64,000 nt of DNA, taken from assembly GCA_050250375.1 (NCBI GenBank), contig JBFWOS010000001.1, positions 830,361 through 894,360 of the forward strand. The letters are read 5' to 3'. The notes under the pieces are model-generated. The model had not been told where the DNA came from. It saw only the letters and a program-made list of their open reading frames with translations, and did not search any database. A program made the position numbers and the translations under genes. Position 1 is the stretch's first letter, and the number at the start of each line of letters is the position of its first letter. Shown in pieces: positions 13,517-59,491 of this stretch. The DNA is from Candidatus Omnitrophota bacterium. Its GTDB lineage: Bacteria; Omnitrophota; Gorgyraeia; Zapsychrales; Zapsychraceae.

Positions 13517-16318
13517 TTAAATTTCTTTGACCACCGATACGCACTCTGAACAGAGGGATGAGTGATCCTTGTCCTGGCCGACGTCCGTCCTGTATTTCCA
13601 GCAACGGCCGCATTTTTCACCGTCAGCCTCTTCAATCACGACCTGAGTCTTCGCGAAATTTTCACTCAGCCCGGATGGGACGTTATCGACTTTATTCACA
13701 TTTGCCTGCGAGACAATAAACATCTCGGCCAGTTGTCCGCCGAATTGCGACAGATAAACAAAATCCCGTTCGCTCGACGTATTAAAAACCACCTTGGCTT
13801 CCAGTGAACTGCCGATCTCTTTGGCCGTGCGTTTATCTTCCAGGGCTTTCAGCACATACGGTCGCAACATAATCATCGGTTCAAAGTATTCGTCAATCTT
13901 GGCGCTTTTCCATTGTTCCGGAACGTCAAGGAATTCTAACAGGTGAACGCTTTGTACACCTTTCATCGACTTCTCTTTGGGCATGAACAAAAAGACTTCT
14001 TCCGCCGTAAACGTAATGACCGGGGCCAGCCACCGGACGAGATGGTTCAGGATATGATACAAGGCGGTCTGGGCCGCTTTGCGTGTCCCGGACTTGGCCG
14101 CACTGACATAAAGCCGGTCTTTGATGATATCCAGGTAAAAATTGGAAAGGTCTTCATTGCAGAAACTGTAAATGGATTTGTAAACTTTCGAAAATTCATA
14201 CGCGTTATAATACTCGCTGAGCGAACAGGAAAGTTCAGACAATTTATTCAGCGCCCACTTATCCAGGTCCATAAGGTCATCATATTTTAATTGTTCCTGG
14301 TCAGGATTAAAGTCATAAAGATTGGATAACAGATACCGCAGGGTATTGCGGATCTTGCGGTACGCATCCACCAGCCGGTCCAGGACTTCTTTGGAAATGC
14401 GGATATCTTCATTGTAAGAACTGGACGCGACCCAGAGCCGGAGAATGTCGGCGCCGTTCTGTTCATAAATTTCCTGGGGAGCAATGACATTGCCGAGGGA
14501 CTTTGACATCTTGCGGCCCTGGCCGTCTACCACAAAACCGTGGGTCAGGACTTCTTTAAACGGGGCCTTGCCTTCCATGGCCACCGCCGGAATTAAGGAT
14601 GATTGAAACCAGCCGCGATGCTGGTCGGACCCTTCCAGATAAAGGTCGGTCGGCAATTCATCCTTGATCATATCCTTCACGACCGCCTGGCAGCTGACTC
14701 CGGAATCAAACCACACATCCAGGATATCAAAGGTCTTCTCAAAGTCAGCCTCACCGGTCTGCGGATCTTTGAAGCCATCAGGAATCAAGTCCAGGATATC
14801 TTTGATAAACCAGGCATCGGTCCCTTCCTTACGGGCAATGTCGGCGAAATGGTCGATCACCTCAGAATACAATTTGATTTCCCCGGTTGATTTTAATTTA
14901 AGCGCGGGAATCGGCACACCCCAGTAACGCTGGCGGGAAAGGCACCAGTCCGGCCGTCCGGCCACCATGGCCGTGATCCGTTCTTCTCCGGCCGGCGGAA
15001 CCCATTTGACCTCATTGGCAATAATTTCTTTGGCTTTGGCCCGCAATCCGTTATGATCAATTTTCATAAACCATTGCTGGGTCGCCCTGAAAATAATCGG
15101 TTTCTTGGAACGCCACGAATGCGGATATGAATGCGTGATATCCTCCCGTTTGAATAAAATCCCGGCGGATTGCAGATCTTCAATAATCAGCTTGTTCGCC
15201 TTCCAGACATGCTGGCCTTCATATTTACCCGCCTCTTTGGTGTAAATCCCTTTTTCATTGACGGGCATGACCACATCCAGTTTGTATTTCATGCCGGTCT
15301 GGTAATCGTCGGCTCCATGGCCCGGCGCCGTGTGGACCAGTCCGGTACCGTCTTCTTTGGTCACATAGTCGGCAGTCACAACCGGGCAGTCTTTGCGCAT
15401 ACCCAATGGATGATTATATTTTAGGGCCGTCAGGCTCGCGCCGTCGGTCTCTTTAATCACTTTGAAACCGGTCAGTTCGCCCTTGGCCAGGACTTTATCT
15501 CTTAAGGAACTTTCCACAATGAGCAGTTTGTCGTCCGTTTCCACGACCGAATATTTAAACGCCCCGTGCACGGAAACAGCCACATTAGCCACCAGCGTCC
15601 AGGGGGTGGTCGTCCAGACCAGCAGAAAACATTTCTTGGCAGCAGCAATGTTCAAGGCCTGCGGATTGGTGACTTCAAAAAAAACGTAGACGGAAGGCGA
15701 TGTGACATTTTCATATTCAACTTCTGCTTCAGCAAGCGCTGTTTCGTTCTCAATATCCCAATTTACTGGCTTCAATCCCCGGTAAATATAGCCTTTTTTA
15801 TTAAGATCCGATAATGATTTCAAAATCCAGTATTCATAATTCGGGTCGAGAGTCAGATATGGATGATCCCATTCACCAAATACCCCCAGCCGTTTGAACT
15901 CTTCGCGCTGGATGCCGACATAATTCATCGCGTATTCATGCGCCTGCTTGCGAAAATCCACGCTGTTGACATCCTCTTTGCGTTTGTTCATTTCCTGAAA
16001 AAGCTTGTGTTCAATCGGCAACCCATGGCAGTCCCAGCCCGGGACATAGTTGGTGTTGTATCCTTCCATGGTCTTAAATTTAACAATCATATCTTTGAGG
16101 ATTTTATTCAACGCGTGGCCGATGTGGATATGCCCGTTGGCATACGGCGGTCCGTCATGCAGGACAAACTTCTTTTTCCCGGCGCCTTTTTTCTTGATGG
16201 CGGAATATAAATCCGCATCCGCCCATTGTTTGAGGTAACCCGGCTCTTTAGTCGCCAGACCGGCCTTCATGGAGAATTCTGTTTGGGGTAAGTTCAGCGT
16301 TTTTCGATAGTCGATCAT
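13517..16318 (-). CDS. ileS: isoleucine--tRNA ligase
   Basis: HIGH motif PPYANGHIHIGHALN, KMSKS motif, editing domain, and C-terminal Zn-finger cysteines. 933 aa. Confidence 0.95.
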   Translation of the reverse strand: MIDYRKTLNLPQTEFSMKAGLATKEPGYLKQWADADLYSAIKKKGAGKKKFVLHDGPPYANGHIHIGHALNKILKDMIVKFKTMEGYNTNYVPGWDCHGLPIEHKLFQEMNKRKEDVNSVDFRKQAHEYAMNYVGIQREEFKRLGVFGEWDHPYLTLDPNYEYWILKSLSDLNKKGYIYRGLKPVNWDIENETALAEAEVEYENVTSPSVYVFFEVTNPQALNIAAAKKCFLLVWTTTPWTLVANVAVSVHGAFKYSVVETDDKLLIVESSLRDKVLAKGELTGFKVIKETDGASLTALKYNHPLGMRKDCPVVTADYVTKEDGTGLVHTAPGHGADDYQTGMKYKLDVVMPVNEKGIYTKEAGKYEGQHVWKANKLIIEDLQSAGILFKREDITHSYPHSWRSKKPIIFRATQQWFMKIDHNGLRAKAKEIIANEVKWVPPAGEERITAMVAGRPDWCLSRQRYWGVPIPALKLKSTGEIKLYSEVIDHFADIARKEGTDAWFIKDILDLIPDGFKDPQTGEADFEKTFDILDVWFDSGVSCQAVVKDMIKDELPTDLYLEGSDQHRGWFQSSLIPAVAMEGKAPFKEVLTHGFVVDGQGRKMSKSLGNVIAPQEIYEQNGADILRLWVASSSYNEDIRISKEVLDRLVDAYRKIRNTLRYLLSNLYDFNPDQEQLKYDDLMDLDKWALNKLSELSCSLSEYYNAYEFSKVYKSIYSFCNEDLSNFYLDIIKDRLYVSAAKSGTRKAAQTALYHILNHLVRWLAPVITFTAEEVFLFMPKEKSMKGVQSVHLLEFLDVPEQWKSAKIDEYFEPMIMLRPYVLKALEDKRTAKEIGSSLEAKVVFNTSSERDFVYLSQFGGQLAEMFIVSQANVNKVDNVPSGLSENFAKTQVVIEEADGEKCGRCWKYRTDVGQDKDHSSLCSECVSVVKEI

Positions 16319-16354
16319 AATATAAAGATTGTTTTTCCGATTGAATTAAAGTCC

Positions 16355-16384
16355 TAAACTACCACAAATGCCCACGGGTGTCAA
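16355..16384 (-). promoter_or_regulatory. candidate sigma70-type promoter for ileS
   Basis: On the minus strand, TTGACA, a 17 bp spacer, then TAGTTT, lying 35-65 bp upstream of the ileS ATG. Confidence 0.3.
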
Positions 16385-16420
16385 TTTTCCGCTCAAGCGT
16401 TTTTTGGAAAAAAGATAAAT

Positions 16421-17383
16421 TTATTTTATTGTGGCTTTAATTTGATTAATTAAATTTTCTTTTAGTGCATCCCATTTATCGTTCTCCCAAACAATATGTG
16501 CATATTGACGAGTATCGAAATGCAATCTTTTTCGTTTGCCAGTGTTAGTATCAACGTCATCCATATGATCTTTCCGACACAATTTAACAACATCTAACCC
16601 CATTCCCATGGCATAGCCCGCTTCAAAGTAAGCCCCATTGTTTTGATCGGTAAAATCAGCGATAATGAACCGAGACTCTTTGATATCACTAATTATTTTA
16701 TGTGAAATATCATCATTATGCCTTTGATCAGATACTAAATTTGCTTCAAAACCACATTCATTACAAGCTTCTTTGATTGTACGGACCAATTCTTCTTGAT
16801 AATCAGTTCCGAATTGACACGCTATAAAAACTTTCTTACTCGAAACATTAATTTCTTTTAATCCCTCATATTTCTGCCAACCTGTCACCGTTGTACGACA
16901 CTTATACTTAGTCAAAGTTCCAACAGGGCCAGAATCAGTATTAAGCTCAATCCATTTTCTTTCTTGTAGATATTCTAATATGGTTTTAAGATCTCCTGGA
17001 GCACTCAAGTAAAAACGATATACATCATTATCGGTTAACTCAACTTTAGTTAAAACCTTAGGAGCGTTAGCATAAATAAATTTCAGAATGTGATTTGTTT
17101 TATCGGGGACCGATATTTTGGTGAACCGTGAAACAATGTCTGATATTTGTCCACACATTTGAGACGTTATACTTAACAAATTTCTATCTGAAGATATATT
17201 ACGTATGTATCCAGAGAACAAATGCAAATGATCTTGAGGAATTCTTTGAAAATTCGTATCTTCCAAAGCCTCCTGTGAAATTCGATAAAGACCACACATA
17301 GGGCATTCTACCTCGACAATATCACGAGATTTAATCTCTTCCCACCTTGTGGTTTCTTTATTGCAAAAATTGCAATTATCCAT
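16421..17383 (-). CDS. zinc-ribbon protein with C-terminal nucleoside 2-deoxyribosyltransferase-like (TIR/SLOG-superfamily) domain
   Basis: N-terminal CxxC...CPxC. The C-terminus KKVFIACQFG...RFIIADFTDQNNGAYFEAGYAMGMGLDVV resembles the NDT-family catalytic Glu loop. GC is much lower than the flanking genes. Confidence 0.5.
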   Translation of the reverse strand: MDNCNFCNKETTRWEEIKSRDIVEVECPMCGLYRISQEALEDTNFQRIPQDHLHLFSGYIRNISSDRNLLSITSQMCGQISDIVSRFTKISVPDKTNHILKFIYANAPKVLTKVELTDNDVYRFYLSAPGDLKTILEYLQERKWIELNTDSGPVGTLTKYKCRTTVTGWQKYEGLKEINVSSKKVFIACQFGTDYQEELVRTIKEACNECGFEANLVSDQRHNDDISHKIISDIKESRFIIADFTDQNNGAYFEAGYAMGMGLDVVKLCRKDHMDDVDTNTGKRKRLHFDTRQYAHIVWENDKWDALKENLINQIKATIK

Positions 17384-17411
17384 ATTCTCTCCTATAAAAT
17401 CAAATATAAAT

Positions 17412-18137
17412 TTATATTATAACCGACCGGGACAGCATTTCGCGCACACCGTTTTTGTCCTGGATATAGACTTCCGGGAGGAATTCGATGGCCTTGGGGA
17501 TCTGCTTTTCGATCACGGCCTGGATCCGCGCCTGCTGTTCGGTGTCGGCCGCGTCAAAAATCGGCTGATTGCTCAGGTCGTTCAATAACAAAATCCCCGG
17601 GTCATGGGCAAACTCAAAATTCTTGATCAGCTGTTTGACCAAAAGATCGAGAAAGACCGGTTTATCTTTAAACACCTCCACCGATGTCTTTAACGTGATC
17701 TTGCCCCAGTCTTCATGGAGCAATTTCTGAATGGTGCCGTAAGCGGATGAATATTTGACCAGGCGCTGCTCGCCGGGTTTAAGCTTGCGGGCCGTGTTAA
17801 GGATCACCGCGGCGAATTCGTTCTGGTTAAACGTGTTGATTTCTTTATGGATGTCGATAGTCAACAATTCAAATACATAAACCCCACGCACACTCAAGGC
17901 GGCGGTCGAGACGCTGTATTTCACAAAATCTTCAACCGCTTCCCAGAGGATATCTTCATCCTTGCGGATGACGTTGAGCGCGAGCATCACGCACGGCTGG
18001 TCTTCATGCACCGCCCGGTATTTGCGGACCTTGCCTTCCAGGTGCCCCTGGTAAAAAATTTCGTCAAAGATCGGCATATGCACAAACAGATTAGAGTGCT
18101 GTATGCCGCCGTTAATTAAATTATATTGTCCTTCCAT
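17412..18137 (-). CDS. hypothetical protein (241 aa)
   Basis: Long ORF with native GC and codon usage; no family recognised. Confidence 0.45.
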   Translation of the reverse strand: MEGQYNLINGGIQHSNLFVHMPIFDEIFYQGHLEGKVRKYRAVHEDQPCVMLALNVIRKDEDILWEAVEDFVKYSVSTAALSVRGVYVFELLTIDIHKEINTFNQNEFAAVILNTARKLKPGEQRLVKYSSAYGTIQKLLHEDWGKITLKTSVEVFKDKPVFLDLLVKQLIKNFEFAHDPGILLLNDLSNQPIFDAADTEQQARIQAVIEKQIPKAIEFLPEVYIQDKNGVREMLSRSVII

Positions 18138-18206
18138 AATGCCCTTTCTTTAATACCCTACGTAGCTCAAACACGAGGCGCAGCGAAGTTTTTGAGCGAA
18201 GCAGGG

Positions 18207-19874
18207 CTATTTCACGACCAGAATTCTAACATCCCCTTGGGAATAAATCACCTGAAAAATATCCGGGTTAAGCAATGTCTTACCGTGGCCGACCTGTTTA
18301 AGCCGGTCATATTTTCCCTGATAAAATCCATCGAGGTCACCGTAGCCGTTCACGACAAATTCGATCCGGCGCAACACTCCGTCCGAATAAAAAACATGGG
18401 AAATCTTGTAACGGTTAATGATTTCCCTGACCCTGGCCGGGTCTTCGGTGTTATACATTTCATAAATGTCATCGAGTACCTGCCAGCTGTCGCTGATATA
18501 AGGAATTCCCGCGCCTTTTAAAGGAAACATACTGCCCAGCAGCGCCCGGCCCGCGCAGACCCCGCTGACCATCTGGGCCGTGTAATAATCTGCCAGGACC
18601 CTGTCCTTTGCCGTCGTATGTTCCCTGAACCAATAGGCCGCGCGGATTTCCTCCAGGCTGAGCATATGTTCTTCGTAGCGGTGATTAAGTTTGAACCCGC
18701 CGTAAAGATCCGCCGTCAGGACCACGACCATAATCATCCCGAACCCGGCACAAAAACGGCTCGCCTTCCATTCCCGCTTCTGAAAAAATCTTGATTTTAA
18801 AAATTGCTCCAGGGCCAGGGCCGCGCACAATGCCAGCGGCTGGGTTAAAAAGCTGTAGAACCGGAACCCTTCGATCGGGCGCACGAGATTGTTCCACATG
18901 AGCGCATTCTTCTGAAATAACAGCAGCATCCCTTCCATGTGCGATTCAATGATCGGATAAATCGCCCAATACACGGGTAGGAGATAAAACATCTCTTTTT
19001 TGTGTTTCCGGCGGAAGATAAAAAATACCAGAAAGAAAAACGCGAGATGCCCGATGACCGCGCTGACCGTCCCATAATGTTTCAATAACAGAATCCGGTC
19101 CGGTGAGGCCGTCGAGGTTGATAACCCTTTGGTCCACCACCAGTAAAGTTTTCCGGGAAGCCACCACCAGGCTGTCAGAAGCTGACTCAATAAAAATGCT
19201 CCGATTAAGTATGCCGTCTTCTTAAAAGAGCCGATCTTCTCAGTAACCAGGCTGACGTGAACAAACAATAAAATAATCACCAGATTAAAATAAGTCAGAT
19301 GGGTCAAGAAATTCACGGTCAGCAAAATGACAAAGATCAAAAAATGGATGAGGCGGTTTTTCAGGATAAATTTGTCCTGCAGGAACGTGACCCACAGCAG
19401 GATGGCCAGCGGTATGCAGAACATCGTGAAACCCTGCGGGGTCCCGATGGATGACCAGAAAATAAATGCCGGCGTCAACGCCAGGAAAACGGTCGAGACC
19501 ACCGCCACGCGCACAGAATAAAGGTAACGGCCGAGAAAATAAAACGGCAGGACCGCCGTTGACTCGACAAACGGCATGATCCGCGAGGTCACCGTCGGTA
19601 AATCAAGCGCCGTCAGTTTGCTTAACAGCGCGTAAATATAAACGGCGAACGGGTTGTACCAGAACGGGACATTCCCGTACGCGGAATAACGGATGTCCCA
19701 GACCGGCAAATGGCCGTTATCCAGAACATACTGGGCCAGGCATAACCGGTACCAGATGTCCGCGTCGAATGTCAACAAGTGCGGATCAAAGACCAGCTTC
19801 GGCAGAAGACGGATACATACACTAAAAATATAAATGAAAACGAGAAAAAATATTTCGGAAGGTTTCAACCGCAT
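18207..19874 (-). CDS. GT-C fold membrane glycosyltransferase (STT3/AglB/PMT-like)
   Basis: About 13 predicted TM helices. The first extracytoplasmic loop FDPHLLTFDADIWYRL...DNGHLPVWD resembles the DxD/WYR loop of STT3/PMT-type transferases. Confidence 0.4.
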   Translation of the reverse strand: MRLKPSEIFFLVFIYIFSVCIRLLPKLVFDPHLLTFDADIWYRLCLAQYVLDNGHLPVWDIRYSAYGNVPFWYNPFAVYIYALLSKLTALDLPTVTSRIMPFVESTAVLPFYFLGRYLYSVRVAVVSTVFLALTPAFIFWSSIGTPQGFTMFCIPLAILLWVTFLQDKFILKNRLIHFLIFVILLTVNFLTHLTYFNLVIILLFVHVSLVTEKIGSFKKTAYLIGAFLLSQLLTAWWWLPGKLYWWWTKGLSTSTASPDRILLLKHYGTVSAVIGHLAFFFLVFFIFRRKHKKEMFYLLPVYWAIYPIIESHMEGMLLLFQKNALMWNNLVRPIEGFRFYSFLTQPLALCAALALEQFLKSRFFQKREWKASRFCAGFGMIMVVVLTADLYGGFKLNHRYEEHMLSLEEIRAAYWFREHTTAKDRVLADYYTAQMVSGVCAGRALLGSMFPLKGAGIPYISDSWQVLDDIYEMYNTEDPARVREIINRYKISHVFYSDGVLRRIEFVVNGYGDLDGFYQGKYDRLKQVGHGKTLLNPDIFQVIYSQGDVRILVVK

Positions 19875-48776: not shown

Positions 48777-49265
48777 TCATTTATCTCTTTCCTTAATTTG
48801 TTCCGCCTTTGCCAGGACTTTCTGAGTCCAGTTCAAATCATCAGAATTGACAACAATGACATCGAAACCAAATCGGGCTCCATCGGAAATAAATGACTCC
48901 TGATCATCTACATGTAATTTAAAACCAAATTTTGAAGGATATTTGGAAGGCAATGGTATTTTCCGATTGCCAATCACCTCTCTTACATGAATGGGTTGAT
49001 TGACCACCTTCACTAAAGACACACCATAAAACTTAAAAAACCTTTTAACAGAACTTACCGAACGAAAAGAAGTTGTATAAATTGCAATTTGCCATCCCTG
49101 ATCCGTTAACCTCCGCATTAATTCAACTGTTCCCCGCCTTAATGGTTCTTTGTAAAAAAGACGCCAAATAAAGGGTACTCGAGTGGCTTCTTTGGGGACT
49201 TCACTATCTAAGCAGATCAAAGTGTCATCTAAATCAAAAGATATGATCATAGTTTTTTTATTCAA
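48777..49265 (-). CDS. HAD-superfamily hydrolase-like protein
   Basis: N-terminal DxDxT motif (ISFDLDDTL). Lower GC than the flanks. Confidence 0.45.
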   Translation of the reverse strand: MNKKTMIISFDLDDTLICLDSEVPKEATRVPFIWRLFYKEPLRRGTVELMRRLTDQGWQIAIYTTSFRSVSSVKRFFKFYGVSLVKVVNQPIHVREVIGNRKIPLPSKYPSKFGFKLHVDDQESFISDGARFGFDVIVVNSDDLNWTQKVLAKAEQIKERDK

Positions 49266-50427
49266 TTAGCCCTGACCGCTCCGGCGGCCAATAGATTTTA
49301 AAAACTTTACCCTTAACGTTTTCCTCTGGGACAAATCCCCAATAACGGCTGTCATGACTTTTAGCGCTATTGTCCCCTAGGACAAAATAATGTCCCGTCG
49401 GCACAGTGACAGGCCTCTGTCCGTAATATCCGTTAGCATAGTAGTCAATAGATTTTATCCTGGGATCCATAATCAACTCGCCGTTAATATAAATATCGTC
49501 ATTCTTTATCTCAACCTTTTCGCCCTCAAAGGCGATGAGTCGTTTTATAAAATCACGCCTCTTGTCTTCAGGATAAATAAATACGATTAAATCTCCGCGT
49601 TGCGGTGCCGATTCTTTATAAATCCTTTTATCTACCAATATTCTGTCGCCTACTAATAAAGTCGGCGACATTGATCCGGCTGGAATTTTATAGGCTTGCA
49701 CAATATTCTTTCTGACATACATTGTCACCGGAAGGCTAATAACCATCGGCATAATAAATGCAAACACAATCCCACAAATGAGAAACTTTTTGTTGTATCC
49801 AGCGAATCGGCTTTCGAGATCATGAAGTTGATTAAATTTTGTAGAAGAAAAATATGCATCAACAATTATATACAACCTAAACAAAAATAAAGAAACAAGC
49901 AGAGCAATCAAAAAAAGATTGGATTTGGTTTCAGGGAGAAAAATATAACCCGCCAGCGCATTGGAACAAACAACGCGGAGCACAAAAAACAGTATCCCTT
50001 TTTTAGGATACCCTGCATAGATTTGGCCCAACCCATCACAACAAAGACTTAAAATAATCGCCAATAAAGGTTCTTTTGGTTTTTGAACGATGCTTTTCTT
50101 CCAAGGTAAGAATCCCCAGATCTTTTCCCAGACTTGAAATGCATCACCCATCATCTCCAAACAAGCGGAGTCTTTTTCATCCCAGTTCACAAAGGTATAT
50201 TTTTTATTCTTATCGGATATTTTTTCTTCCAACAATCCATATAACTTCATTCCTACCGGTTTGATGGATTTGACTCTTGACACATTAAGGATCTTTACAG
50301 TGAATACTTTCTTGTTATAACCCCGGATGGTAATTTCAAGATACTTTCCTTTTTCACGGACTGAGATAATCGTCCCGTCGTGTATATCTTTCGGGCCGAC
50401 ATAATTTAAGTTTGGATTTTCCTGCAT
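49258..50427 (-). CDS. signal peptidase I catalytic domain fused to an about 115-aa N-terminal soluble domain and four TM helices
   Basis: SPase box B (IPAGSMSPTLLVGD), box D (FIKRLIAFEGE) and box E (VLGDNSAKSHDSRYWGFV). The N-terminal 250 aa, including four TM helices, is not a canonical LepB N-terminus. Confidence 0.65.
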   Translation of the reverse strand: MQENPNLNYVGPKDIHDGTIISVREKGKYLEITIRGYNKKVFTVKILNVSRVKSIKPVGMKLYGLLEEKISDKNKKYTFVNWDEKDSACLEMMGDAFQVWEKIWGFLPWKKSIVQKPKEPLLAIILSLCCDGLGQIYAGYPKKGILFFVLRVVCSNALAGYIFLPETKSNLFLIALLVSLFLFRLYIIVDAYFSSTKFNQLHDLESRFAGYNKKFLICGIVFAFIMPMVISLPVTMYVRKNIVQAYKIPAGSMSPTLLVGDRILVDKRIYKESAPQRGDLIVFIYPEDKRRDFIKRLIAFEGEKVEIKNDDIYINGELIMDPRIKSIDYYANGYYGQRPVTVPTGHYFVLGDNSAKSHDSRYWGFVPEENVKGKVFKIYWPPERSGLIE

Positions 50428-50437
50428 TGTTTTAACC

Positions 50438-51127
50438 TCAAGCCCAACTCAATCCATCAGGCAACGTGTAGTCGCTATACTCTAAATGAACAACTCGACG
50501 TTGAGCCGGTTTGTCCGCTTTGTTGGATGAATGAAGAACATGCGGGCGCATCAGGACCGCATCACCTCTTTCAACGATACAGGAAACGGAATCACGTTTA
50601 ACTTTCAGTTCATCAACTTGATTTTGAGTTAATATACCAAACTGATGTGATCTAGGAATTACCTTTAGACAACCGTTTGATTCATCGGCCGGGTCTAAAT
50701 GGATGCGGATCGTCACCATACGTTCCAGGACATTGATGTCCGGCTGGACATGTTGTACACCATCTTTGATGGTCCATGGCCCCCAGCCTGCTATGTCGGT
50801 TTGCCGGTCGACTGCGATCGTTTTGTCCTGATGCCATACAACACCCCAATTGGCCTCGCTTGTTTTATTAAAATAAATCGCCCTGACCATCTGGGGTTTT
50901 CCATTCAGCACCGTCTCAGCAAGGTCCAGAACTTTTGGGGAACGAGTCAAATGGTACACGGCCTTCACTTTTTTCTCCAAATTCCTTATACCGGAAACAG
51001 CGTCATTTCCTAAACACGATTTGATTTCTCTGCCAAGCAAATCCGCCTCGTCTTGATTCAAAAGATTCTTGAGAACAAAACATCCCTGTTCAACCAGATC
51101 CTTTTTTACGTTATTCTTCACGAGCAT
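50438..51127 (-). CDS. PhyH-family Fe(II)/2-oxoglutarate dioxygenase
   Basis: HxD...H iron triad (VVWHQDK... / RPHVLHSS) and overall PhyH-like length. Confidence 0.6.
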   Translation of the reverse strand: MLVKNNVKKDLVEQGCFVLKNLLNQDEADLLGREIKSCLGNDAVSGIRNLEKKVKAVYHLTRSPKVLDLAETVLNGKPQMVRAIYFNKTSEANWGVVWHQDKTIAVDRQTDIAGWGPWTIKDGVQHVQPDINVLERMVTIRIHLDPADESNGCLKVIPRSHQFGILTQNQVDELKVKRDSVSCIVERGDAVLMRPHVLHSSNKADKPAQRRVVHLEYSDYTLPDGLSWA

Positions 51128-51494
51128 TGGATATCCCTTTACCGTATTTCTTTAGAAACTCTTCTCTTATTTTTTTTGTTTTTTCTACATCTTCAATTTC
51201 TCTCGACATCGGTTCATCGGCCTGGTCTGTTTCGATAATCTTAATGACGATTTCATCCCCACACTTTAATTTTTGATGCTTGATCCAACGCAAATGTTCA
51301 TTCAACTTTTCACGATGTTGGGTTAATCCCCCAACAAAAATATCTATATTCACCTTATCTTTTACATAAACCGCGCCTTTTGATTCTTTGCCCAACGTTC
51401 CGACAGCTGATATTCCTGCATTTAGCCCCCCGAGGTCAGAACCGCCGGCAATAATCGGTTGATCATTATTCACTTGAACTTGAAGTGCAATCAT
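51111..51494 (-). CDS. small protein of unknown family, paralog 1 of a tandem pair
   Basis: Aligns over about 100 aa with the next ORF (I.AG..DL..L...S.....D....VGGL....EHL.WI.H..L...DE..I.I.E.D.AD.P). Confidence 0.5.
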   Translation of the reverse strand: MIALQVQVNNDQPIIAGGSDLGGLNAGISAVGTLGKESKGAVYVKDKVNIDIFVGGLTQHREKLNEHLRWIKHQKLKCGDEIVIKIIETDQADEPMSREIEDVEKTKKIREEFLKKYGKGISNAREE

Positions 51495-51825
51495 CTATTT
51501 GAGGCCTCCTCTTTTTGGGTAAATCCGCTTCATCCATTTCCAGAATTCTTATCTTTAGTTCGTCGTTTATATTTAATTCTCTATGCCCGATCCAATCCAG
51601 ATGTTCTCCCTGGTCACCATTCTGTGGCGCAGACAAACCCCCAACGTGTAGAAAAAAATCATCATTCTTTATTTTAGTAGGATGTATTTTCTTAAGATTG
51701 AAAGAACAGGACAAAATGCTACCTAAAACACACAAATCTTCTCTTCCGGCGATAACCAACCGTTCTCCATTTAATAGAATCTCAAATGCGATCATATCAC
51801 TCCCTAAATTTTTTTGATTCCCCAA
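51466..51825 (-). CDS. small protein of unknown family, paralog 2 of a tandem pair
   Basis: About 30% identical to paralog 1, with a divergent C-terminus ending ...CTSSSSE. Confidence 0.5.
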   Translation of the reverse strand: MGNQKNLGSDMIAFEILLNGERLVIAGREDLCVLGSILSCSFNLKKIHPTKIKNDDFFLHVGGLSAPQNGDQGEHLDWIGHRELNINDELKIRILEMDEADLPKKRRPQIDDCTSSSSE

Positions 51826-59290: not shown

Positions 59291-59491
59291 TTACAATTTG
59301 ACAACATCTTTTGCTTGTTCACCTTTTGGTCCGTTGGCAATCTCGAATTCAACTGCTTGCCCTTCTTCCAATGTTTTGAATCCATCACCTTGAATATCAC
59401 TGTGATGAACAAAAACATCCTTACCAGACTCCAGCGCGATAAATCCAAAACCTTTTTGATTGCTGAACCATTTTACTGTACCTTTAGCCAT
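59291..59491 (-). CDS. cspA: cold-shock protein (CspA family)
   Basis: [18 protein letters not shown] with RNP1 and RNP2 motifs; 66 aa. Confidence 0.9.

What the first reader, a model, noticed from the sequence alone, without database searches (positions are those of the whole stretch)
16330..17410. Single-gene low-GC islet beside ileS encoding a zinc-ribbon plus nucleoside-2-deoxyribosyltransferase-like domain protein
The ORF at 16421..17383 is strongly AT-biased compared with ileS and the upstream 241-aa gene, and sits wedged between the ileS promoter region and the next gene, which argues for insertion. Domain order is an N-terminal C4 zinc ribbon, a middle region of unknown fold, and a C-terminal roughly 130-aa flavodoxin-like domain with the FEAGYAxGxG signature of the NDT/TIR/SLOG superfamily. 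That superfamily cleaves or processes NAD+ and nucleotides in many antiphage systems (established for Thoeris TIR and SLOG proteins). A standalone protein of this type could be a nucleotide-depleting defence effector or a nucleotide-signal sensor.
Basis: partly seen in the sequence, partly recalled or inferred. Interest (0 to 1): 0.7.

Follow-up and report, generated by a model that had tools for sequence, protein, structure and literature searches.

The report
Inserted single-gene NDT/TIR-like candidate defence cassette
A 991-bp AT-rich piece of foreign DNA carrying one gene has been dropped between two core genes of an Omnitrophota bacterium; the gene encodes a zinc-ribbon and winged-helix "sensor" fused to an enzyme domain of the type that cuts NAD+ or nucleotides in known anti-phage systems, and it belongs to a very large mobile family whose function nobody has tested.

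Summary
ORF 16421..17383 (-), 320 aa, has GC 0.343 and GC3 0.265; its neighbours have GC3 0.54-0.65. Four related Omnitrophota genomes have the 241-aa gene followed directly by ileS (110-117 bp apart). The closest relative carries different cargo at that junction. The insert is 991 bp, essentially RBS plus ORF, flanked by a 10-bp palindromic direct repeat. Removing it in silico restores the ancestral junction.

The family has about 4,600 clusters at 50% identity. It has no conserved partner gene and occurs in prophages, plasmids, defence islands and integron cassettes. 39 of 40 members match a PADLOC "Effector/TIR" model.

Best reading: a standalone, phage-triggered N-glycosidase acting on a ribo-substrate, most likely NAD+. 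The function is inferred, not shown.

The parts
16415..17405 (-). The inserted segment (991 bp): 22-28 nt leader with RBS, plus the 963-nt ORF. There is no integrase, attC, terminal inverted repeat or terminator of its own.
   Evidence: Absent between the 241-aa gene and ileS in L012, L013, L014 and L044. In-silico excision gives a 102-bp intergenic region collinear with the relatives' 110-117 bp. GC 0.343 against about 0.48.
17406..17415 (.). Upstream copy of the 10-bp direct repeat ATAAATTTAT, which is its own reverse complement. It overlaps the TAA stop of the 241-aa gene.
   Evidence: The 10-mer occurs only twice in the 64-kb window, at the two borders. 13 of 5000 shuffles of the two 61-nt junction windows give a shared 10-mer. 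It extends to 17/19 at 17402-17420 and 16411-16429.
16415..16424 (.). Downstream copy of the same 10-bp repeat, overlapping the TAA stop of the inserted ORF.
16421..17383 (-). ORF, 320 aa: ZnR - helical linker - wHTH - NDT-like protein. Identical to MAG protein AB7S78_10000 (Ca. Omnitrophota, GCA_050181705.1).
   Evidence: AF2 model mean pLDDT 89.5.
17388..17393 (-). Shine-Dalgarno AGGAGA, 7 nt before the ATG. The ORF starts 28 nt after the stop of the 241-aa gene, so transcription is probably by read-through.
   Evidence: Sequence. No convincing promoter or terminator of its own: the scan found fewer sites than in shuffles.
17276..17383 (-). Residues 1-36: C4 zinc ribbon (CxxC...CxxC; C4, C7, C27, C30), three short strands.
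   Evidence: Cysteines invariant in A1 and present in at least 208/217 broader members. Weak Zn-ribbon Pfam hits such as Lar_restr_allev and Zn_ribbon_8.
17069..17275 (-). Residues 37-105: helical linker region, poorly conserved.
   Evidence: DSSP of the model. 24% mean identity to the query.
16850..17068 (-). Residues 106-178: winged helix-turn-helix (MarR-like), not basic.
16424..16849 (-). Residues 179-320: NDT/TIR-superfamily Rossmann-like N-glycosidase domain. Beta1 is VF186IAxxF; D243 ends beta3; Y252-F-E254-A-G-Y-A starts alpha3; then H288-F-D290 and W299.
16622..16624 (-). Codon GAA for E254, the predicted catalytic nucleophile.
   Evidence: 217/217 conserved. Aligned to the Glu of GTAFEVG in TbNDT and GVGYELG in Rcl.
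16356..16384 (-). Native ileS promoter, NOT part of the insert: -35 TTGACA (16379-16384), 17-nt spacer, TG-extended -10 TAGTTT (16356-16361). The insert ends about 30 nt upstream of it.
   Evidence: Conserved in all five aligned relatives (A2). The consensus scan did not flag it because the -10 matches only 3 of 6 positions, so this is a conservation-based call.

Best explanation
The region is a recently acquired, minimal (ORF plus RBS) mobile cassette. It encodes a self-contained sensor-effector protein of the NDT/TIR N-glycosidase superfamily.

Proposed mechanism:
1. The fast-evolving N-terminal module (C4 zinc ribbon, helical linker, winged helix) keeps the enzyme off and recognises an infection cue.
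2. Recognition drives self-association. This completes the composite active site that NDT and TIR enzymes both need.
3. The invariant Glu254 attacks C1' of a ribose-containing metabolite, most likely NAD(P)+ and otherwise an NMP or NTP.
4. The base is released, the pool is depleted, and phage replication stops (abortive infection or growth arrest).

Shown here: the insertion; the fold; conservation of the catalytic constellation; the single-gene organisation; carriage on prophages, plasmids, integron cassettes and defence islands; and sequence homology of the catalytic domain to a PADLOC defence effector model.

Inferred: enzymatic activity, substrate, trigger, oligomerisation and the anti-phage phenotype.
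For: - Insertion and foreignness.
- Defence-effector precedent: 39/40 members hit PADLOC PDLC00733 'Effector - TIR' (best E 6.7e-16) over about 100 residues of the catalytic domain. Retron type II effectors are NDT-like plus wHTH N-glycosidases that hydrolyse NAD(P)+ (PMC12673091; PMC7736814). DUF4062 TIR-like single-protein NADases defend by NAD+ depletion.
- Sensor/effector asymmetry: the N-terminal modules are 24-29% identical to the query and the catalytic domain 51%.
- Single-gene unit: no neighbour family occurs in more than 7 of 41 dereplicated groups, nor in more than 3 of 133 neighbours.
- Mobility and context: 66 IMG/VR loci; phrog_16139; prophage moron positions; a Scalindua defence island with MTase, Fic, SLFN-AlbA, HEPN/MNT and DruA; a TIR-rich cluster; Leptospira phage-plasmid with SEFIR directly upstream; integrase and Fic island; an attC-bounded cassette next to VapBC. 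Integron cassettes are known carriers of compact phage-defence genes. The gene is more AT-rich than its flanks in 111/127 loci.
Against: - No experiment exists, and no published characterisation was found.
- PADLOC 2.0 does not recognise the protein as a system; only the domain matches.
- Defence genes are a minority among immediate neighbours, which also include tRNA synthetases, EF-G and topoisomerase. Guilt-by-association is therefore modest, and no formal enrichment statistic was computed.
- The protein scores below Pfam's PF05014 cut-off and far below the TIR cut-off.
- The winged helix is not basic, so direct duplex-DNA sensing is doubtful and the trigger is unknown.
- Invariant Y252, two residues before the Glu, could take over the role of the missing beta1 Tyr. 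This would weaken the ribo-substrate argument.
- No hit among sequenced phage isolates; 'viral' carriage rests on predicted prophages and viral contigs.
Confidence: 0.55

Rival explanations
1. An enzyme that benefits the mobile element or phage rather than the host. It could be a counter-defence N-glycosidase that destroys nucleotide immune signals (cADPR-type or cyclic oligonucleotides), or an enzyme that reshapes the nucleotide pool for phage DNA synthesis or modification. In the window it would then be a stranded remnant.
For: 66 predicted viral contigs carry relatives, and phrog_16139 is a phage protein family. Phage-encoded PF05014 NDTs have been linked to nucleotide-pool manipulation for dZ genomes (10.1101/2025.10.22.683976). 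BFVD's top structural hits are phage 'CMP/hydroxymethyl CMP hydrolase' and NDT proteins.
Against: Many copies lie in non-phage chromosomal settings: the ileS islet here, integron cassettes next to toxin-antitoxin genes, defence islands and megaplasmids. In prophages the gene sits in moron-like positions, once on the opposite strand to the phage backbone. No sequenced phage isolate carries it. A fast-evolving ZnR-wHTH N-terminus is unnecessary for a simple metabolic enzyme.
Confidence: 0.12
2. A signal-dependent component of a multi-gene nucleotide-signalling system. The Rossmann domain would bind a TIR-made nucleotide signal, or cleave its substrate only after binding one, in the manner of Thoeris ThsA. 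The solitary copies would be orphaned or would cooperate with TIR genes encoded elsewhere.
Against: TIR neighbours appear in only one of 34 dereplicated non-viral loci and in none of 41 groups otherwise. The window insert carries nothing but the ORF. An invariant Glu at the nucleophile position, together with D243 and HFD, points to catalysis rather than binding alone.
Confidence: 0.1
3. A selfish toxin or addiction cassette, or a neutral passenger, with no role in phage defence. It would be an auto-inhibited toxic N-glycosidase that persists because it is mobile.
For: It sits beside VapBC and Phd/ParE cassettes. The insert is ORF-only. It is AT-rich in most hosts.
Against: No cognate antitoxin gene is conserved next to it. 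About 4,600 diverged full-length clusters with an invariant active site imply long-term purifying selection on function across phyla.
Confidence: 0.08
4. An ordinary nucleoside-salvage 2'-deoxyribosyltransferase, as RefSeq annotates it, or a ligand-sensing winged-helix transcription factor.
For: RefSeq/PGAP names homologues 'nucleoside 2-deoxyribosyltransferase'. There is a PF05014 hit and a MarR-like wHTH.
Against: The Tyr that goes with 2'-deoxy specificity is Phe, and the DxGT Asp has no counterpart in the HMM alignment. The score is below Pfam's cut-off. Distribution is patchy and horizontally mobile, and the gene is absent from sister genomes. There is no conserved neighbouring target gene, and the wHTH is acidic to neutral.
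Confidence: 0.05

Closest known systems
Retron type II (Retron-Eco1/Ec86, Sen2) N-glycosidase effectors
   Same: An NDT-like N-glycosidase domain combined with a winged-helix domain in a protein of about 300-320 aa. It is an anti-phage effector reported to hydrolyse NAD(P)+ and to work as dimers or filaments.
   Different: The domain order is reversed (NDT-wHTH there, ZnR-linker-wHTH-NDT here) and the retron effectors have no zinc ribbon. They depend on an adjacent RT and msDNA. Here there is no RT, no ncRNA and no conserved neighbour. Mestre 2020 relates the retron NDT domains to PF15891, which gave no hit here at E<=1. Retron effector structures were not among the top 50-60 PDB fold matches.
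PADLOC PDLC00733 'Effector' (described as TIR)
   Same: Sequence-level homology over about 100 residues of the catalytic domain in 39/40 family members, best E 6.7e-16.
   Different: Only profile positions about 257-372 of 388 match. The N-terminal roughly 250 positions of that effector are unrelated to the ZnR-wHTH module. From memory, PADLOC uses the name 'Effector' for CBASS effectors, but I could not verify that here.
MilB / BcmB / BlsM CMP (hydroxymethyl-CMP) N-glycosidases and DNPH1/Rcl
   Different: Those are single-domain metabolic or antibiotic-biosynthesis enzymes of about 120-160 aa. They are not mobile sensor fusions. The H222, HFD and W299 positions are specific to this family.
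Single-protein TIR-like NADase defences (DUF4062 Swarozyc/NIR, SEFIR, SpbK)
   Different: No Pfam hit to DUF4062 or SEFIR, and the TIR hit is far below cut-off. By sequence this family is nearer to NDT/DNPH1. The auxiliary domains differ.
Integron gene cassettes encoding phage resistance (BRiCs)
   Same: The closest homologue (60% identity) is an attC-bounded, promoterless, single-ORF cassette in an array with a VapBC cassette. Compact defence genes are known integron cargo.
   Different: The window copy has no attC site and is not in an array. Only 2 of 155 family loci show a strict attC directly after the gene.

Membership tests
Pfam PF05014 Nuc_deoxyrib_tr (NDT/DNPH1 family) | Score at or above Pfam's gathering threshold (28.8 bits) | tested here: not met
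   26.1 bits, E=1e-5, residues 185-273. All 40 aligned homologues hit at E<=0.01, best 1.5e-7. This is a divergent branch rather than a core member.
Pfam PF05014 Nuc_deoxyrib_tr (NDT/DNPH1 family) | Flavodoxin/Rossmann-like fold superposable on NDT, DNPH1 and MilB | tested here: met
Pfam PF05014 Nuc_deoxyrib_tr (NDT/DNPH1 family) | Catalytic Glu nucleophile at the start of helix 3 (xFExGxA motif) | tested here: met
   E254 aligns to the Glu of TbNDT GTAFEVG and Rcl GVGYELG. Conserved 217/217.
Pfam PF05014 Nuc_deoxyrib_tr (NDT/DNPH1 family) | Beta1 Tyr hydrogen-bonded to the Glu (Tyr7 in LlNDT), associated with 2'-deoxy specificity | tested here: not met
   The aligned position is F186: Phe in 214/217 and Tyr in 1/217. 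Significance per PMC11204291.
Pfam PF05014 Nuc_deoxyrib_tr (NDT/DNPH1 family) | Asp of the DxGT motif preceding the Glu | tested here: not met
   In the HMM alignment the TbNDT 'pDcGT' Asp falls in an insertion with no family counterpart. The family has (Q/R/N)xG(V/A)Y instead. This is alignment-based only.
Pfam PF05014 Nuc_deoxyrib_tr (NDT/DNPH1 family) | Glycosyl transfer or hydrolysis on 2'-deoxynucleosides or nucleotides | not testable with these tools
   Needs an enzyme assay.
TIR domain NADases (PF01582, PF13676, PF08937) | Significant match to a TIR-family HMM | tested here: not met
   PF01582 E=0.057, 13.7 bits against a cut-off of 21.3. No TIR_2 or ThsB_TIR hit. No TIR chain found with the family profile against PDB sequences. 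However, the PADLOC model labelled TIR (PDLC00733) matches 39/40 members.
TIR domain NADases (PF01582, PF13676, PF08937) | TIR-like fold | tested here: met
TIR domain NADases (PF01582, PF13676, PF08937) | Catalytic Glu with Phe or Ala (not Tyr) at the beta-A position | tested here: inconclusive
   The Glu and F186 are present and the rule is taken from PMC11204291.
TIR domain NADases (PF01582, PF13676, PF08937) | NAD+ cleavage dependent on self-association | not testable with these tools
   Needs biochemistry or multimer modelling.
Retron type II NDT-wHTH effectors | Encoded next to a retron RT and msr-msd ncRNA | tested here: not met
   The insert contains only the ORF. No conserved neighbour in 41 groups or among 133 neighbours. 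No Rfam hit in 15900-18400.
Retron type II NDT-wHTH effectors | N-terminal NDT-like domain followed by a C-terminal wHTH; NDT domain related to PF15891 | tested here: not met
   The order here is ZnR-linker-wHTH-NDT. No PF15891 hit at E<=1. Family definition from PMC7736814.
Integron gene cassette | attC recombination site (R''/L''...L'/R') directly downstream of a promoterless ORF | tested here: not met
   The window has only about 36 nt of native sequence between the stop codon and the ileS -35 box, and none of the attC motifs seen in relatives. The feature is met for the closest homologue in L126: attC-like sites at 745-846 and 1810-1887, -22.9 kcal/mol with ends paired.
Thoeris-type system | Adjacent ThsB TIR gene plus an effector with a signal-binding domain | tested here: not met
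   There is no TIR gene near the window ORF. TIR neighbours are seen only in L123.
DUF4062 (Swarozyc / NIR) TIR-like NADases | Match to the DUF4062 model | tested here: not met
   No DUF4062 hit at E<=1 in the Pfam scan.

The most novel reading that the evidence does not exclude
This is a major, unrecognised family of standalone antiviral sensor-effectors: about 4,600 clusters at 50% identity, spanning bacteria and phage or plasmid elements. Its NDT-fold enzyme would not simply burn NAD+. It would cleave a different ribonucleotide (CMP or hmCMP-like, or ATP/NTP), or perform base exchange to make a signal. It would be switched on by a ZnR-wHTH module that reads a phage protein or an unusual nucleic acid. 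It would spread as ORF-only cassettes through integrons and a palindrome-targeted insertion route that needs no element-encoded recombinase.
Probability: 0.2. Interest if true: 0.75.

Novelty: new variant of a known kind. Interest (0 to 1): 0.55.

Why it matters
If the function is confirmed, this would add a very abundant single-gene defence family to the catalogue. Current tools (PADLOC 2.0, PHROGs, RefSeq naming) either miss it or label it a salvage enzyme. It would link three branches of one enzyme superfamily (NDT/DNPH1, MilB-type CMP hydrolases and TIR NADases) through a natural intermediate whose active site is NDT-like in sequence but TIR-like at the specificity-determining Tyr/Phe position. 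This makes the evolution of substrate choice directly testable with an F186Y swap. The locus is also a clean natural example of how small a horizontally transferred immune unit can be: 991 bp, ORF plus RBS, expressed by read-through, inserted without disturbing the promoter of an essential tRNA synthetase gene. It also shows that Omnitrophota, ultra-small and often episymbiotic bacteria, draw on the same mobile defence pool as Bacillus prophages.

Tried and rejected
- Conserved partner gene: I clustered the +/-4 neighbours in 76 loci (41 dereplicated groups). The best cluster reached 7/41 and looks like Bacillus-phage backbone. A Pfam bulk scan of 133 neighbours found no family in more than 3. 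A two-gene system is rejected.
- Retron: there is no RT or ncRNA and the domain order is opposite. Rejected.
- Integron cassette in the window: no attC, and no GTTAGAGG/CCTCTAAC bracket next to the gene. Rejected for this copy, though true for the closest homologue.
- Transposon or IS: no transposase and no terminal inverted repeats beyond the palindromic 10-mer itself. Unresolved; the insertion mechanism is unknown.
- Own promoter or terminator: the scan found fewer sites than shuffles.
- Single-sequence PDB search: no hits. The profile search was needed.
- Sequenced phage isolates (INPHARED): no tblastn hit with the window protein or with P0046.
- AFDB50 fold library: not available.
- Model coordinates are not exposed. 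I could not measure Glu-Tyr/Phe geometry or model oligomers.
- Literature: searches for PF05014 with defence, Nuc_deoxyrib_tr with phage, and N-glycosidase with antiphage found no description of this architecture.
- Other low-GC patches in the window were examined and look ordinary.
Full report
**1.
The window has an ATG-initiated ORF of 320 aa at 16421..17383 on the minus strand. An AGGAGA Shine-Dalgarno lies 7 nt upstream, and the ORF starts only 28 nt after the stop of the co-directional 241-aa gene. Its GC is 0.343 and its GC3 0.265. The seven surrounding genes (msrA, GH26, ileS, the 241-aa, 555-aa and 193-aa genes, and GST) have GC 0.46-0.49 and GC3 0.54-0.65, and the window average is 0.463. 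The protein is identical to a hypothetical protein of a Candidatus Omnitrophota MAG (GCA_050181705.1).

**2. It is an insertion, and its limits can be placed to within the repeat.**
I fetched ileS loci from species-representative genomes and mapped the window's genes onto them.
- Four related Omnitrophota genomes (ileS 73-78% identical: L012, L013, L014, L044) keep the 555-aa gene, the 241-aa gene and ileS in the same order. In all four the 241-aa gene is followed by ileS after 110-117 bp, with no intervening gene.
- The closest relative (L015, ileS 87%) has a different 2.6-kb cargo at exactly this junction. It consists of a small ORF with no Pfam hit that looks hydrophobic by eye, an APS kinase (PF01583, E 1e-57) and a sulfotransferase. 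The junction is therefore a variable spot.
- A putative ileS promoter (TTGACA, 17 nt, TG-n-TAGTTT) is conserved in all relatives. In the window it begins about 30 nt beyond the inserted ORF's stop codon.
- The insert is bracketed by a perfect 10-bp direct repeat, ATAAATTTAT, at 16415-16424 and 17406-17415. Each copy overlaps a TAA stop codon, and the repeat is its own reverse complement. These are the only two copies in the 64 kb. A shared 10-mer arises in 13 of 5000 shuffles of the junction windows, and the similarity extends to 17/19.
- Deleting 991 bp in silico leaves a 102-bp spacer collinear with the relatives' empty sites.
- The insert holds nothing but a leader with RBS and the ORF. There is no recombinase, no attC, no terminator and no convincing promoter, and no known RNA family. 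Expression is probably by read-through from the 241-aa gene.
- How the piece got in is unresolved. A single crossover of a circular intermediate at a 10-bp microhomology would produce exactly this repeat pattern, but that is inference.

**3. What the protein is.**
A 40-sequence alignment (A1) gave a confident AlphaFold2 model with mean pLDDT 89.5. It has four parts:
- **Residues 1-36:** a three-stranded C4 zinc ribbon. The cysteines are invariant in A1 and present in at least 208 of 217 broader members.
- **Residues 37-105:** a helical linker.
- **Residues 179-320:** a Rossmann-like beta-alpha domain.

By sequence the domain is on the NDT side:
- PF05014 hits at E=1e-5 but with 26.1 bits, under the 28.8 cut-off.
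- All 40 members hit PF05014.
- The family profile finds T. brucei NDT (E 0.0035) and Rcl/DNPH1 in the PDB, and no TIR chain.
- That alignment puts E254 on the catalytic Glu.

Across 217 diverse members, E254 and G256 are 217/217, Y252 is 216, F186 and F289 and D290 are 214, and D243 is 210 with a further 6 Glu.

**4. A specificity clue.**
The beta1 residue that aligns with the NDT Tyr ('kiYiA' against 'kvFvA') is Phe in 214/217 members. According to PMC11204291, NDTs and DNPH1 have this Tyr hydrogen-bonded to the Glu and are highly specific for 2'-deoxy substrates, whereas TIR NADases usually have Phe or Ala there. From memory, the work that paper cites (Sikowitz 2013) showed that MilB's preference for CMP over dCMP is governed by the same Phe/Tyr position. 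The best structural match, MilB, acts on ribonucleotides. I therefore expect a 2'-OH substrate: NAD(P)+, an NMP or an NTP, rather than dNMP or dNTP. One caveat applies. Invariant Y252 might substitute for the missing Tyr, and I could not inspect the geometry because the model coordinates are not exposed.

**5. The family.**
- **Size:** an exhaustive profile search finds 4,622 representatives of 50%-identity clusters at E<=1e-30. The top 150 are all full-length proteins of 290-350 aa, except one of 501 aa.
- **Existing labels:** the family corresponds to phrog_16139, annotated 'unknown function'. RefSeq calls members 'nucleoside 2-deoxyribosyltransferase'.
- **Conservation:** the catalytic domain is about twice as conserved as the N-terminal modules, at 51% against 24-29% identity to the query. 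This is the usual pattern for a conserved effector fused to a diversifying sensor.
- **The winged helix:** it is acidic to neutral (mean net charge -2), so plain duplex-DNA binding is doubtful.

**6. It is a single-gene, mobile unit.**
- **No partner gene:** across 76 loci (41 dereplicated groups) no neighbour family recurs beyond 7 groups, and those look like Bacillus-phage backbone genes. Among 133 immediate neighbours from 34 non-viral loci there are 110 different Pfam families, none in more than three proteins.
- **Prophage and viral contexts:** moron positions in a B. cereus prophage and in a metagenomic phage, in the latter on the opposite strand to the phage genes. There are 66 IMG/VR contigs in total.
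- **Defence-type contexts:** a Scalindua defence island with MTase, Fic, Schlafen/AlbA, HEPN-MNT and DruA; an integrase-bounded island with a SoFic-like Fic protein; and a tight cluster with two ThsB-TIR genes, a 2129-aa TIR protein and a patatin.
- **Plasmids:** 21 records. These include a Leptospira phage-plasmid where the gene follows a SEFIR gene and precedes a large methyltransferase.
- **Core-gene neighbours:** other neighbours are plain core genes such as tRNA synthetases, EF-G and topoisomerase. That matches the ileS islet here, but it also means the defence-island signal is only moderate.
- **Phage isolates:** no sequenced phage isolate carries the gene.
- **Composition:** family-wide, the gene is more AT-rich than its flanks in 111/127 loci (median -0.047). 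The window's gap of about -0.14 is in the extreme tail, which suggests recent arrival.

**7. An integron route for the nearest relatives.**
The closest homologue (P0003, 60% identity, Omnitrophota) sits in an attC-bounded cassette array. There are attC-like sites with RYYYAAC and GTTRRRY ends at L126 745-846 and 1810-1887; the latter folds at -22.9 kcal/mol with its ends paired. A VapBC cassette follows, and then another repeat. The 53% homologue (L003) shares the same GTTAGAGG...CCTCTAAC bracket and an 11-nt repeat element, and lies beside Phd/ParE and an integrase. A strict attC detector finds such a site right after the gene in only 2 of 155 family loci, against controls of 1/155 and 1/225. 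Integron carriage is therefore real but a minority route, and the window copy has lost it or never had it. Integron cassettes are documented carriers of compact phage-defence genes (10.1101/2024.07.02.601719).

**8. Link to catalogued defence effectors.**
39 of 40 members match a single PADLOC model, PDLC00733 ('Effector', description 'TIR'). The best E-value is 6.7e-16, over about 100 residues of the catalytic domain (member 205-303 against profile 257-362 of 388). The N-terminal 250 positions of that model are unrelated. So the catalytic module is already used as an effector in a recognised system with a different front end.

Two published precedents have the same logic:
- Retron type II effectors are NDT-like plus wHTH N-glycosidases that hydrolyse NAD(P)+. 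They have the opposite domain order, depend on RT and msDNA, and belong to a different Pfam family (PF15891).
- DUF4062 'Swarozyc/NIR' proteins are single-protein TIR-like NADases.

**9. Verdict.**
- **Best explanation (confidence 0.55):** a recently inserted ORF-only cassette. It encodes a standalone, phage-triggered N-glycosidase of the NDT/TIR superfamily that depletes a ribose-containing metabolite, most likely NAD(P)+.
- **Rivals:** an MGE-serving counter-defence or nucleotide-pool enzyme (0.12); a signal-dependent component of a TIR system (0.10); a selfish toxin (0.08); and a salvage NDT or regulator (0.05).
- **Novelty:** a new variant of a known kind. The enzyme superfamily and the strategy are known. 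This architecture, its abundance and its minimal mode of spread are not described in anything I could search.
- **Limit:** nothing here measures activity or protection.

Noticed in passing
L015:3376-6000 (JAGOSC010000036.1, closest relative; ileS 87% identical): The same 241-aa|ileS junction holds a different 2.6-kb cargo: a 116-aa ORF with no Pfam hit that looks hydrophobic by eye, an APS kinase (PF01583, E 1e-57) and a sulfotransferase (PF13469). The 555-aa gene is missing in this relative. The junction therefore behaves as a variable insertion spot in this clade.
   Followed up: partly
L126:745-846, 1810-1887 and about 2556-2703 (Ga0378408_0088137, Omnitrophota): An integron-like cassette array. 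attC-type palindromes with RYYYAAC and GTTRRRY ends separate a partial 239-aa ORF, the NDT-like gene, a VapBC pair and further ORFs. No integrase lies on the 4-kb contig. L003/L004 share the GTTAGAGG/CCTCTAAC bracket and an ATAAGGCCCCG repeat element.
   Followed up: partly
L123:7377-16915 (GCA_016294905.1, JAEAMF010000012.1): A distant family member (28% identity) is embedded in a tight same-strand cluster: ThsB_TIR (204 aa), family gene, ThsB_TIR (384 aa, overlapping stop and start), a TIR_2 protein of 2129 aa, then TPR-S/Patatin. This may be a multi-gene TIR system that uses the NDT-like protein, or simply a dense defence island.
   Followed up: no
L208:5312-10124 (Leptospira interrogans plasmid p4, NZ_CP043897.1): On a 76-kb plasmid carrying a baseplate J gene (a phage-plasmid), the family gene lies 13 nt after a SEFIR-domain protein gene and just before a 772-aa SAM-dependent methyltransferase.
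   Followed up: no
window 16415-16424 and 17406-17415: The 10-bp flanking repeat ATAAATTTAT is a perfect palindrome, and each copy contains the TAA stop of the gene before it. Whether it is a target-site duplication, a recombinase site or microhomology is unknown.
   Followed up: partly
window 17412-18137 (-): The 241-aa protein upstream of the insert has no Pfam, NCBIfam or meaningful PADLOC hit. It is 77-87% conserved and syntenic with ileS in the five relatives that retain this neighbourhood. It is a clade-specific core protein of unknown function.
   Followed up: partly
window 48777-51825 (-): A second low-GC patch (0.375-0.43 per kb). It holds a 389-aa S26 signal peptidase with a roughly 220-aa N-terminal extension, a PhyH-family dioxygenase and two small ORFs (127 and 119 aa) with no family hit. 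No defence signature was seen.
   Followed up: partly
window 59291-59491 (-) and its leader to about 59640: The low-GC kilobase at 59-60 kb contains a 66-aa ORF that reads like a cold-shock protein (recognised by eye from the translation, not scanned), with a long AT-rich 5' leader. This looks like ordinary, native AT-richness.
   Followed up: no
family-wide (127 loci): Family genes are more AT-rich than their flanks in 111/127 loci, across hosts from 32% to 69% GC (slope 0.74). This fits continual horizontal transfer with partial amelioration.
   Followed up: yes
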